Part shown: positions 6,386-7,105 of the stretch, one piece after another | How positions within the stretch are numbered: the stretch's first letter is position 1 | Layout of the letters: each line of letters starts with the position of its first letter | Source: a virus | Lineage: Duplodnaviria > Heunggongvirae > Uroviricota > Caudoviricetes | Length of the DNA stretch: 18,564 nt | Strand: one strand, 5' to 3' | IMG/VR virus record: IMGVR_UViG_2875713109_000004 | Program-made: the position numbers and the translations under genes | Notes under the pieces: generated by a model | Seen by the model: the letters and a program-made list of their open reading frames with translations, nothing else | Database searches by the model: none | What the model was told of the DNA's origin: nothing

Positions 6386-6405
6386 AAACTCCTTCTAAAC
6401 CCCAT

Positions 6406-6430
6406 CAGGCCGCCTTCTGGCGGTCTTTTC
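6406..6430 (+). terminator. Rho-independent terminator immediately downstream of cro-like gene
   Basis: Hairpin GGCCGCC-ttct-GGCGGTC (one G-U pair) followed by TTTTC; 20 nt after cro-like stop. Confidence 0.5.
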
Positions 6431-6534
6431 ATATCTATTCAGTCCTCTCAGGTAATAATAATCCGAATATGGTTGATCTTTTTTCGGCCATCGCACAAAA
6501 TCATCGTAACCATAACCAGAATCTGAGGTGAAGT

Positions 6535-6744
6535 GTGGAGATTATCACTCGTATGTCAGCCGCGAAGGCTGGACTGAAGCGTTATTACACCGGAAAGCAG
6601 TGTAAGCGAGGCCATGACAGCGAGCGCTGGGTTTACAACGGCCATTGTGTGGAATGCACCATGGAGTCAAACCGCAGGCGCCAGGCAGAGATTAAACGGA
6701 TTATGGATGAAGCTGCGAAAGGCAACGTGCCGGAGGTGATCTGA
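6535..6744 (+). CDS. Small putative zinc-binding protein (69 aa)
   Basis: Track ORF; motif CKRGHDSERWVYNGHCVEC (C-x3-H ... C-x2-C); GAGGTG SD before GTG at 6535 (alternative ATG at 6553). 3' end overlaps the convergent minus-strand ORF by about 44 nt, so one of the two may be shorter or spurious. Confidence 0.4.
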   Translation: MEIITRMSAAKAGLKRYYTGKQCKRGHDSERWVYNGHCVECTMESNRRRQAEIKRIMDEAAKGNVPEVI

Positions 6745-6928
6745 TGGCGCGCAGCTCAGCCATCGGGCCATCAACATTAAAGCCATCATCACCCAGCTGG
6801 CGCAGCAATGTCATCAGGTGCGAATCTTCAACAAGGGAGCGAACGCCTCCCGGCGTGTGTATACGTTCGGCAAAGCCTTTTTCCAGCGGGTGATGATACT
6901 GACGTTGCATCTGATATTCTCCATGCAT
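6701..6928 (-). CDS. Small ORF directly downstream of a LexA box; candidate SOS-controlled antirepressor (function inferred from context only)
   Basis: Track ORF 75 aa (MHGEYQMQRQYHH...); second ATG at 6910 has GGAG SD about 8 nt upstream and is the more likely start; LexA box sits 4 nt upstream of the first ATG. No recognisable domain. Confidence 0.35.
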   Translation of the reverse strand: MHGEYQMQRQYHHPLEKGFAERIHTPGGVRSLVEDSHLMTLLRQLGDDGFNVDGPMAELRAIRSPPARCLSQLHP

Positions 6929-6929
6929 T

Positions 6930-6949
6930 CACTGTATTTATGTACAGTA
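6930..6949. promoter_or_regulatory. LexA (SOS) box
   Basis: cACTGTATTTATGTACAGTA: perfect CTGT-N8-ACAG with AT-rich spacer, 17 of 20 matches to TACTGTATATATATACAGTA by hand alignment. Confidence 0.7.
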
Positions 6950-6986
6950 GCAAAAGTCCAAGTGACTATCCAGAACGAATTGCCAT

Positions 6987-7068
6987 TTACCTGAAAGGTA
7001 ATAATTTTCCTGATTGTTATTCATTCAATTCATATAAGGTTTGACAGGTAATAAACTGTCCTGATGAT
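6987..7068 (+). promoter_or_regulatory. Operator palindrome TTACC-N5-GGTAA (6987-7001) plus candidate promoter (TTGACA 7040-7045, weak -10 about 17 nt downstream) upstream of the tailspike gene
   Basis: Read directly: tTTACCtgaaaGGTAAt; TTGACAGGTAAtaaactgtcctgATGATG; strong GGAG SD before tailspike ATG. The -10 is poor, so promoter activity is uncertain. Confidence 0.4.
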
Positions 7069-7105
7069 GCACGCGCGCCGGGCGCTGCTTTACAGGAGAT
7101 AGGCC

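What the first reader, a model, noticed from the sequence alone, without database searches (positions are those of the whole stretch)
6386..7105. Apparent internal deletion joining the immunity region to the tailspike gene, with a possible promoter fusion
In intact temperate phages the genes after cro are replication, antitermination, packaging, capsid and tail genes. Here cro is followed within 720 bp by a tailspike gene. The sequence shifts from AT-rich, operator-bearing DNA to GC-rich DNA around 7060-7070, just upstream of the tailspike ATG, which looks like a deletion junction. A TTGACA -35 element (7040-7045) overlapping an operator half-site now lies about 60 bp upstream of the tailspike. 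This may have placed tailspike and the downstream Wzy-like gene under an early, repressor-controlled promoter.
Basis: inference. Interest (0 to 1): 0.65.

Follow-up and report, generated by a model that had tools for sequence, protein, structure and literature searches.

The report
Deletion-crippled epsilon15-like prophage in E. coli
This is an ordinary defective prophage: one 25.5-kb deletion removed the replication, packaging and virion genes of an epsilon15-like phage in E. coli, but the promoter-like and operator DNA in front of the tailspike gene is the phage's own native sequence, not a new fusion.

Summary
The window is identical to E. coli CP035331.1. It holds a Uetakevirus (epsilon15/phiV10-like) prophage remnant integrated at the 3' end of guaA.

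Compared with a near-identical intact prophage (E. coli USMARC-50748), the window lacks exactly 25,472 bp. The junction is at window 6752/6753, with 2 bp of microhomology (CA).

The deletion runs from codon 4 of the DnaT-like replication initiator to codon 53 of the antirepressor gene ant. It removes 30 genes.

Everything from 6752 to the tailspike ATG is identical in the intact prophage. This covers the ant 5' part, the LexA box, the repressor operator, the TTGACA hexamer and the GC-rich block. The same layout is conserved in epsilon15, SPC32H, phiV10, TL-2011b, Tyrion and BUCT554.

So no promoter was fused. The tailspike natively lies behind a repressor-operator-bearing intergenic region.

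The deletion allele is confined to a minority of carriers: 1 of 5,426 complete E. coli genomes, and 32 contigs against 286 carrying the same tailspike. Interest is low.

The parts
1..1254 (+). Tyrosine integrase, the left-most gene of the prophage. The attL core lies 207 bp upstream, outside the window.
   Evidence: Pfam Arm-DNA-bind_3, Phage_int_M and Phage_integrase. The attL core ATTGAGTGGGAATGAT lies at L008 2689, in the guaA 3' end, and L008 is identical to the window.
5410..6000 (-). Rep, a full-length SPC32H-type phage repressor
   Evidence: Pfam HTH_3. Matches PDB 5D50 chain A 'Repressor' at E=1.2e-48 over residues 1-192.
6056..6118 (.). Rightward operator cluster between rep and cro (sites at 6056-6070, 6073-6087 and 6104-6118)
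   Evidence: Motif TTACCT-N4-GGTAA with 0, 2 and 1 mismatches; the motif is enriched against shuffles.
6155..6385 (+). cro-like small regulator
   Evidence: Matches phrog_35 'transcriptional repressor' at 2.7e-10. Same position as in BUCT554 and Tyrion.
6407..6426 (+). Intrinsic terminator after cro. It is the only predicted + strand terminator between cro and the tailspike.
6535..6744 (+). Intact 69-aa gene of unknown function that precedes the replication genes in intact relatives
   Evidence: Matches phrog_1081 at 2.8e-37. Same gene as in BUCT554, Tyrion and L012.
6744..6753 (+). Remnant of the DnaT-like replication-initiator gene: its first 10 nt, ATGGCGCGCA
   Evidence: Left-arm identity with the intact prophage L012 ends at window 6753 = L012 8159. 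The gene starts at L012 8150.
6752..6753 (.). Deletion junction, with 2 bp of microhomology (CA). 25,472 bp are missing relative to the intact prophage.
   Evidence: The left arm matches to 6753 and the right arm matches from 6752 (L012 33630). The offset difference is 25,472 bp. BLAST break points agree.
6701..6910 (-). Truncated antirepressor gene ant'. Codons 1-53 of 86 (6752-6910) are fused to 16 unrelated codons read from the opposite strand of the 69-aa gene (6701-6751).
   Evidence: Translation. The parent's 86-aa Ant matches PDB 5D50 chain E 'Anti-repressor protein' at 4.8e-44. The conserved domains (phrog_15539 residues 30-83, phrog_450 residues 1-85) are cut at residue 53.
6930..6949 (.). 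LexA (SOS) box just upstream of ant
   Evidence: CACTGTATTTATGTACAGTA matches 17 of 20 consensus positions. It is the only such site in the window, with 0 expected. CTGT-N8-ACAG is invariant in 8 aligned sequences.
6987..7001 (.). Native Rep operator in the ant-tailspike intergenic region
   Evidence: Perfect TTACCTGAAAGGTAA. Conserved in all relatives. Annotated as a repressor protein_bind site in epsilon15.
7041..7068 (+). Promoter-like site TTGACA-16-GATGAT overlapping an AGGTAATA operator half-site. It is native, not created by the deletion.
   Evidence: The identical site lies at the same distance from the tailspike ATG in the intact prophage. The -35 hexamer is not conserved in other phages (TTGCTA, TTTTAG), whereas the half-site is.
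7066..7085 (+). It is a conserved native element of the tailspike leader.
   Evidence: 85% GC. TGCAnGCGCGccGGGCGC is conserved in all relatives. It forms only a weak 4-bp stem with almost no covariation.
7106..9457 (+). Intact tailspike gene
   Evidence: Matches phrog_1640 'tail protein' at 1.3e-142. The exact 783-aa protein is also encoded in intact prophages.
15645..15661 (+). attR core, the right end of the prophage remnant
   Evidence: Exact ATTGAGTGGGAATGATT. This is the attP/attB core reported for phiV10, epsilon15 and ZX5 (PMC9782041).

Best explanation
The region is the scar of a single 25,472-bp internal deletion in a Uetakevirus (epsilon15/phiV10/SPC32H-like) prophage integrated at the 3' end of guaA in E. 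coli.

The break joined nucleotide 10 of the DnaT-like replication-initiator gene to codon 53 of the divergently oriented antirepressor gene ant, using only 2 bp of microhomology (CA, window 6752-6753). That points to illegitimate end-joining or slippage rather than homologous or site-specific recombination (inferred).

The deletion removed 30 genes: replication, terminase, portal, capsid, tail and internal virion proteins. It also removed the terminator in front of ant and the last 33 codons of ant.

The 354 bp between the junction and the tailspike ATG are the phage's own ant-tailspike control region and are unchanged. They hold the ant 5' part, the LexA box, a Rep operator, an operator half-site overlapping a promoter-like hexamer, and a GC-rich leader element.

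The result is a roughly 15.9-kb cryptic prophage. It keeps the integrase and both att cores, RecET-like genes, a methylase, Rep and a cro-like gene, the tailspike, a Wzy-like gene, GtrA/B and a large glycosyltransferase, and the lysis cassette.

Inferred consequences:
- It cannot replicate or make virions.
- It has probably lost SOS inducibility, because that runs through LexA-controlled Ant inactivating Rep, and Ant is cut through its conserved domain.
- It can probably still give Rep-based immunity and O-antigen modification.
For: Identity of the window and its relatives:
- The window is identical to CP035331.1.
- It is a Uetakevirus relative: BUCT554 matches at 93% on the left arm and 89% on the right arm. 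Tyrion, epsilon15, phiV10 and SPC32H match at 73-75%.

The deletion and its end points:
- The intact parent-like prophage L012 sits at the same guaA|yfgI site. It differs from the window by only 6 mismatches in 6,753 bp on the left and 5 up to position 15,063 on the right, plus one 25,472-bp gap with end points L012 8159 and 33630.
- In 5,426 complete E. coli genomes, four hold both halves of the junction probe at 100% identity but in separate places. One (PSS-07) has them joined.

The native control region:
- The ant-tailspike intergenic region is identical in L012 and conserved in six phages.
- The same TTGACA-16-GATGAT site occurs in L012.
- The epsilon15 record annotates a repressor site there.

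The Rep/Ant switch:
- Rep and the parental Ant match the SPC32H Rep-Ant complex 5D50.
- The literature describes LexA-controlled Ant inactivating the repressor (PMC7380047; PMC9638917).

Reality of the allele:
- The chimeric Ant' protein is found on 32 contigs, including two complete chromosomes, so the junction is not an assembly artefact.
Against: No expression, induction or excision data exist for this allele, so all functional consequences are inferred. These include loss of SOS inducibility, retained immunity and retained O-antigen conversion.

The compared intact prophage is a close relative, not the proven ancestor. The microhomology length (2 bp) therefore assumes the ancestor had the same bases at both break points. 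The deletion could in principle have arisen in more than one step.
Confidence: 0.93

Rival explanations
1. The junction lies at 7060-7070, and the operator-bearing AT-rich DNA with its TTGACA hexamer comes from the immunity region. The deletion therefore fused an early repressor-controlled promoter to the tailspike and the Wzy-like gene.
For: There is a sharp GC shift at 7066. A 10-of-12 promoter-like match overlaps an operator half-site.
Against: The whole stretch 6752-7105 is identical in the intact prophage, where it lies 25 kb from the immunity region. Its layout is conserved in six intact phages. epsilon15 carries an annotated repressor site there. BLAST break points lie at 6752-6756, not 7060-7070.
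Confidence: 0.02
2. Regulatory rewiring as a side effect of the deletion. The terminator that precedes ant and the tailspike in the intact phage was deleted. Transcripts from the early rightward promoter (PR) that pass the cro terminator would now run antisense through ant' and into the tailspike and the Wzy-like gene, tying those genes to early, Rep-controlled transcription.
For: The intact prophage has a terminator at L012 33504-33523, directly upstream of the ant 3' end. It lies inside the deleted segment. In the window no terminator is predicted between 6427 and 7105.
Against: A good intrinsic terminator remains right after cro (6407-6426). PR should be repressed in the lysogen, and the Ant route to derepression is broken. 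The tailspike already has its own native operator-bearing upstream region. There are no transcript data.
Confidence: 0.12
3. The cro-to-tailspike arrangement is native to a small satellite-like or naturally compact element, not a deletion derivative.
For: The element keeps the integrase, both att cores, the immunity genes and the lysis genes. It recurs in 32 contigs.
Against: Both genes at the junction are truncated relative to widespread full-length forms. The replication initiator keeps 10 nt, and Ant keeps 53 of 86 codons and ends in out-of-context sequence. The flanks are about 99.9% identical to a 41-kb intact prophage at the same attachment site. The intact Ant is on 403 contigs against 32 for the chimera.
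Confidence: 0.01
4. The junction is an assembly artefact (collapse or misjoin).
For: None specific.
Against: The identical junction is present in two independently finished chromosomes (CP035331.1 and AP027673.1 PSS-07), in a draft genome, in a Logan assembly and in 32 contigs overall.
Confidence: 0.01

Closest known systems
Intact Uetakevirus prophage at guaA in E. coli USDA-ARS-USMARC-50748 (NZ_CP104117.1, 1332906-1374040)
   Same: Same attachment site, same gene order and about 99.9% nucleotide identity on both arms. The ant-tailspike intergenic region is identical, and the tailspike protein is identical.
   Different: It carries the 25,472 bp missing here: 30 genes, the terminator before ant, and a full 86-aa Ant.
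Salmonella phage SPC32H Rep/Ant/LexA antirepression switch (Kim & Ryu 2013; PDB 5D50 and 5D4Z)
   Same: Rep is a full-length homologue (E=1e-48). The parental Ant is a homologue (E=5e-44). ant lies divergently upstream of the tailspike with a CTGT-N8-ACAG LexA box.
   Different: In the window Ant is cut at residue 53 of 86 and fused to 16 unrelated residues, so the switch is probably disabled. This is inferred, not tested.
Salmonella phage epsilon15 and E. coli phage phiV10 (type Uetakeviruses)
   Same: Synteny is the same. The same att core ATTGAGTGGGAATGATT lies at the guaA 3' end. Repressor sites are annotated at several intergenic regions, including ant|tailspike.
   Different: Identity is only 73-81%. 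The tailspike C-terminal domain and the conversion genes differ: here a Wzy-like gene plus a GtrA/GtrB/large-glycosyltransferase module.
Phage P22 immI region (from my own knowledge, not tested here)
   Same: An antirepressor gene placed immediately upstream of the tailspike gene as a second immunity-related control region.
   Different: P22 ant is controlled by Mnt and Arc and points towards gene 9. Here ant is divergent from the tailspike and carries a LexA box and a Rep operator. No Mnt or Arc homologues were looked for.
Cryptic (defective) prophages of E. coli in general
   Same: A deletion remnant that retains the integrase, immunity genes, recombination genes and surface-modification or lysis genes.
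   Different: It is very recent and clean: a single event, all surviving genes intact, and about 0.1% divergence from an intact relative.

Membership tests
Uetakevirus (epsilon15-like) prophage | Nucleotide similarity and gene order shared with epsilon15, phiV10, SPC32H, BUCT554 and Tyrion | tested here: met
   BUCT554 covers 57% of the window at 85% identity. The order int, early-left genes, rep, cro ... tailspike, conversion genes, lysis genes is syntenic.
Uetakevirus (epsilon15-like) prophage | Integration at the guaA 3' end with core ATTGAGTGGGAATGATT | tested here: met
   The attR core is exact at 15645-15661. The attL core matches 16 of 17 at the guaA 3' end in the identical locus L008. 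The core sequence is taken from PMC9782041.
Uetakevirus (epsilon15-like) prophage | Complete set of replication, packaging and virion genes (an intact, viable phage) | tested here: not met
   30 genes present in L012 8150-33495 are absent from the window.
SPC32H-type Rep/Ant/LexA antirepression switch | Rep homologue with HTH domains and a C-terminal oligomerisation/Ant-binding domain | tested here: met
   Matches 5D50_A at E=1.2e-48 over residues 1-192 of 196.
SPC32H-type Rep/Ant/LexA antirepression switch | Full-length Ant (86 aa) | tested here: not met
   The window encodes Ant residues 1-53 plus 16 unrelated residues. The full 86-aa Ant is present in the intact relative (5D50_E, E=4.8e-44).
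SPC32H-type Rep/Ant/LexA antirepression switch | LexA box in the ant promoter region | tested here: met
   The box at 6930-6949 matches 17 of 20 consensus positions, with 0 expected by chance. It is invariant across relatives.
SPC32H-type Rep/Ant/LexA antirepression switch | Ant binds Rep and releases it from its operators after SOS induction | not testable with these tools
   Biochemical and genetic property. Only described in the literature for SPC32H.
Promoter fusion created by a deletion | The promoter or operator next to the gene derives from the other side of the junction and is absent at that position in the undeleted parent | tested here: not met
   The TTGACA-16-GATGAT site and the operators lie on the tailspike side of the junction. 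They are identical and identically placed in the intact prophage.
Cryptic (defective) prophage | Prophage bounded by att sites that lacks genes essential for lytic growth | tested here: met
   The att cores are present. Replication, terminase, portal, capsid and tail genes are absent.

The most novel reading that the evidence does not exclude
The deletion may be an adaptive 'lock-in' event rather than neutral decay. One break removed everything needed for lytic growth and also cut the SOS-responsive antirepressor. The lineage would then keep Rep immunity, O-antigen modification and an intact tailspike without the risk of induction. Loss of the upstream terminator might add early-promoter read-through into the tailspike and the Wzy-like gene. 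The spread to 32 contigs would then reflect selection rather than clonal hitch-hiking.
Probability: 0.1. Interest if true: 0.4.

Novelty: new member of a known kind. Interest (0 to 1): 0.15.

Why it matters
It matters mainly as a correction. The operator- and promoter-like DNA in front of the tailspike is a native control region shared by all epsilon15-like phages, so it should not be read as an engineered-by-accident promoter fusion.

The remnant itself is a clean, datable example of prophage decay: one event, a 2-bp junction, and intact relatives at about 99.9% identity. Together with a second, independently deleted allele, it could serve as a natural test of two questions. Is Ant required for SOS induction in E. 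coli Uetakeviruses? Do conversion and tailspike genes stay expressed in a locked prophage?

It does not open a new kind of system.

Tried and rejected
- An exact 24-nt junction search in genome contigs (one genome per species) found nothing. The allele was then found through exact-protein look-ups and the E. coli complete-genome set.
- The primary papers could not be read: Kim & Ryu 2013 (PMC3807360), Kim et al. 2016 (PMC4983836) and Kropinski et al. 2007 (PMC2698709). The SPC32H mechanism is therefore cited second-hand from PMC7380047 and PMC9638917 and from the PDB entries.
- Pfam gave no hit for the cro-like gene, the 69-aa gene or ant'. PHROGs and the PDB sequence search gave the assignments instead.
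- I tested whether the conserved GC-rich block (7066-7085) is a structured RNA. RNAalifold finds only a 4-bp invariant GC stem, an outer helix with broken pairs, and a covariation term of about zero. I make no claim.
- BUCT554 alone suggested a 5-bp microhomology (CAGCT). I rejected this in favour of 2 bp (CA) once the near-identical E. coli prophage was available.
- I considered RecET- or integrase-mediated deletion. Two bp of homology and no att-like sequence at the break points argue against both (inference).
- No structure prediction of Ant was run, because the full-length protein is not encoded in the window.

Full report
WHAT THE WINDOW IS

The 18.6-kb window is 100% identical over its whole length to E. 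coli chromosome CP035331.1 (locus L008). It starts at the first codon of a tyrosine integrase (1-1254).

From left to right it then contains:
- a leftward early operon with a methylase, PerC-like and AlpA-like regulators, RecT-like and PD-(D/E)XK nuclease genes (1259-5118);
- a 196-aa HTH repressor (5410-6000, minus strand);
- a cro-like gene (6155-6385);
- a terminator (6407-6426);
- a 69-aa gene (6535-6744);
- a tailspike gene (7106-9457);
- a Wzy-like gene (9606-10817);
- a large glycosyltransferase, GtrB and GtrA on the minus strand (10851-13598);
- two holins, an endolysin and a spanin (13743-15534);
- an exact copy of the Uetakevirus att core ATTGAGTGGGAATGATT at 15645-15661 (core sequence from PMC9782041).

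Beyond the att core lie the host genes yfgI and yfgH and an IS3 element. The matching attL core sits in the 3' end of guaA, 207 bp left of the window.

BLAST places the element in the genus Uetakevirus. Enterobacter phage BUCT554 is the closest isolated phage. Tyrion, epsilon15, phiV10, SPN1S and SPC32H are more distant.

CHECKING THE OBSERVATION

- cro is followed by the tailspike after 720 bp.
- The palindrome TTACCT-N4-GGTAA is strongly over-represented: 22 matches against 3.2 expected at up to 2 mismatches. Perfect copies lie at 5338, 6056 and 6987.
- TTGACA lies at 7041-7046, followed after 16 nt by GATGAT. It overlaps an AGGTAATA half-site.
- GC content jumps from 33.5% (6911-7065) to 85% (7066-7085).

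WHERE THE JUNCTION REALLY IS

Similarity to BUCT554 on the immunity side stops at window 6756. Similarity on the tailspike side starts at window 6752.

A much closer reference exists. E. coli USDA-ARS-USMARC-50748 carries an intact 41-kb prophage at the same guaA|yfgI site (L012). Base-by-base comparison shows the following (confirmed by BLAST):
- The left arm of the window (1-6753) differs from it at 6 positions.
- The right arm (from 6752) differs at 5 positions up to 15,063.
- Left-arm identity ends at window 6753 (L012 8159).
- Right-arm identity starts at window 6752 (L012 33630).
- The offset difference is exactly 25,472 bp.

The two arms overlap by the dinucleotide CA, and no longer homology exists at the break points.

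The left break is 10 nt into the DnaT-like replication-initiator gene (L012 8150-8926; phrog_1408). The right break is inside the 86-aa gene that lies divergently upstream of the tailspike (L012 33528-33788). The segment lost holds 30 annotated genes:
- the two replication genes;
- RuvC and the ead/Ea22-like gene;
- both terminase subunits;
- portal, protease, major capsid, cement and staple proteins;
- connector and tail genes;
- the large internal virion proteins.

It also holds a pseudo-tRNA and the terminator at L012 33504-33523.

WHAT LIES BETWEEN THE JUNCTION AND THE TAILSPIKE

The 86-aa gene is the antirepressor ant. The L012 protein matches the 'Anti-repressor protein' chain of PDB 5D50 (phage SPC32H) at E=4.8e-44 over all 86 residues. 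SPC32H annotates the corresponding gene as ant. The window's repressor matches the Rep chain of the same complex at E=1.2e-48.

In the window only codons 1-53 of ant survive (6752-6910, minus strand). The reading frame then runs on for 16 unrelated codons through the opposite strand of the 69-aa gene, to a stop at 6701. The cut falls in the middle of the conserved region (phrog_15539 covers residues 30-83).

Upstream of ant lie, in order:
- a LexA box (6930-6949; 17 of 20 consensus positions, unique in the window, 0 expected);
- a perfect Rep operator (6987-7001);
- the AGGTAATA half-site with the TTGACA hexamer;
- the GC-rich block;
- the tailspike ribosome-binding site.

This entire stretch is identical in the intact E. 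coli prophage. In L012 the same TTGACA-16-GATGAT site lies at 33919-33946, and the tailspike ATG lies at 33984.

The layout is conserved in BUCT554, Tyrion, epsilon15, SPC32H, phiV10 and TL-2011b. The LexA box, the operator, the half-site, the GC block and the spacing to the ATG are all kept. Only the TTGACA hexamer itself varies between phages (TTGCTA in BUCT554, TTTTAG in epsilon15).

The epsilon15 RefSeq record already annotates a repressor-binding site and an IHF site at this position. It also annotates repressor sites in front of the terminase genes, the portal operon, the leftward early operon and the RuvC gene. My own scan of the intact E. coli prophage finds the operator motif in the same kinds of intergenic regions, and also upstream of int and between gtrA and the holin gene. 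Operator-bearing DNA in front of the tailspike is therefore a normal property of these phages.

The deletion is real.

The AT-to-GC shift is a native feature. The 'early, repressor-controlled promoter' was not brought to the tailspike by the deletion.

The only regulatory change I can point to is indirect. The terminator that precedes ant and the tailspike in the intact phage is gone, and no terminator is predicted between 6427 and 7105. Transcripts from the early rightward promoter (PR, which drives cro) that escape the cro terminator could therefore now reach the tailspike. This is inference without transcript data, and PR should be repressed in the lysogen.

HOW IT MOST LIKELY WORKS

Shown:
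- a single deletion with a 2-bp junction;
- loss of all replication, packaging and virion genes;
- truncation of ant;
- intact rep, int, att cores, tailspike, conversion genes and lysis genes.

Inferred:
- The break arose by illegitimate joining or slippage. Two bp is too little for RecET or RecA recombination, and there is no att-like sequence at the break points.
- The element cannot produce phage.
- SOS induction is probably lost. In this phage group it works through LexA-controlled Ant that binds and disassembles Rep (PMC7380047; PMC9638917), and Ant is cut here. A co-resident phage might still supply a compatible antirepressor.
- Rep-based immunity and O-antigen modification probably persist.

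HOW COMMON IT IS

Among 5,426 complete E. coli genomes, 18 carry related sequence. Four carry both halves of the junction probe at 100% identity but about 25 kb apart (intact). Only one, PSS-07, carries the joined form. PSS-07 is identical to the window across the whole prophage.

In the larger collection the counts are:
- the chimeric 69-aa Ant' (a marker of this junction): 32 contigs;
- the identical tailspike: 286 contigs;
- the identical full-length Ant: 403 contigs.

Contexts read for Ant' all show the same arrangement. The deletion carriers examined share an IS3 insertion between yfgH and yfgG that the intact lysogen lacks. This fits spread by clonal descent, but no phylogeny was made.

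Another genome (GCA_049746615.1, L011) has the same prophage with two different deletions. This prophage is therefore decaying independently in several lineages.

COMPARISON WITH WHAT IS KNOWN, AND NOVELTY

The element is a defective derivative of a known phage genus with a known regulatory switch (SPC32H Rep/Ant/LexA). The control region in front of the tailspike is already annotated in epsilon15.

I did not find this particular allele described; public records call the junction ORF 'hypothetical protein'. I rate it a new member of a known kind and of low interest.

The most novel reading not excluded is that the event was selected as a one-step 'lock-in' of a useful prophage. I give that about 10%.

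Noticed in passing
L011 (GCA_049746615.1), relative to L012 8731-13643 and 16418-32384: The same prophage at the same site in another E. coli carries two different internal deletions. They remove the replication-to-small-terminase stretch and the portal-to-gp17-like stretch, while ant stays full length. This is independent decay of the same prophage.
   Followed up: partly
window 13631-13645; L012 1350, 9746, 9808, 13482, 16790, 33865, 40509: The Rep operator motif TTACCT-N4-GGTAA is not confined to the immunity region. 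It sits in at least eight intergenic regions of the intact prophage: upstream of int, of RuvC, of the small terminase gene, of the portal operon and of the tailspike, and between gtrA and the holin gene. This suggests direct repressor control of most transcription units. epsilon15's record annotates five of these regions, but not the int-upstream or gtrA|holin ones.
   Followed up: partly
window 17174-18564: An IS3-family element (orfA/orfB with programmed frameshift) is inserted between yfgH and yfgG. It is shared by the deletion carriers CP035331.1 and PSS-07 and is absent from the intact lysogen USMARC-50748. It is a possible clonal marker of the deletion lineage.
   Followed up: partly
window 7066-7085: A GC-rich block (85% GC, GCACGCGCGCCGGGCGCTGC) lies in the tailspike leader and is conserved in all Uetakeviruses examined. 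It can form a 4-bp GC stem with a 5-nt loop, with one G-C to G-U change and essentially no covariation. Its function is unknown.
   Followed up: partly
window 7700-13700: The distal two-thirds of the tailspike, the Wzy-like gene and the large glycosyltransferase are 31-39% GC (up to about 48% in the tailspike's 3' end), against about 55% for the rest of the prophage. BUCT554 has a different tailspike C-terminus here. This is a mosaic receptor-binding and serotype-conversion module. The Wzy-like and 514-aa proteins have no PHROG family.
   Followed up: no
window 6744-6890 (+): The start codon of the deleted replication-initiator gene, translationally coupled to the 69-aa gene, now opens a 48-codon ORF. 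That ORF reads the opposite strand of ant'. It is almost certainly a meaningless by-product of the junction.
   Followed up: no
window 15754-16287 (yfgI), around position 16071: yfgI is 177 aa in the window and in CP035331.1, but 179 aa in PSS-07, USMARC-50748 and other strains. The difference is a small in-frame indel that distinguishes otherwise identical deletion carriers.
   Followed up: no
L012 16230-16344: The intact prophage carries an annotated pseudogenic tRNA-Gly between the terminase and portal operons. It lies inside the segment deleted from the window.
   Followed up: no
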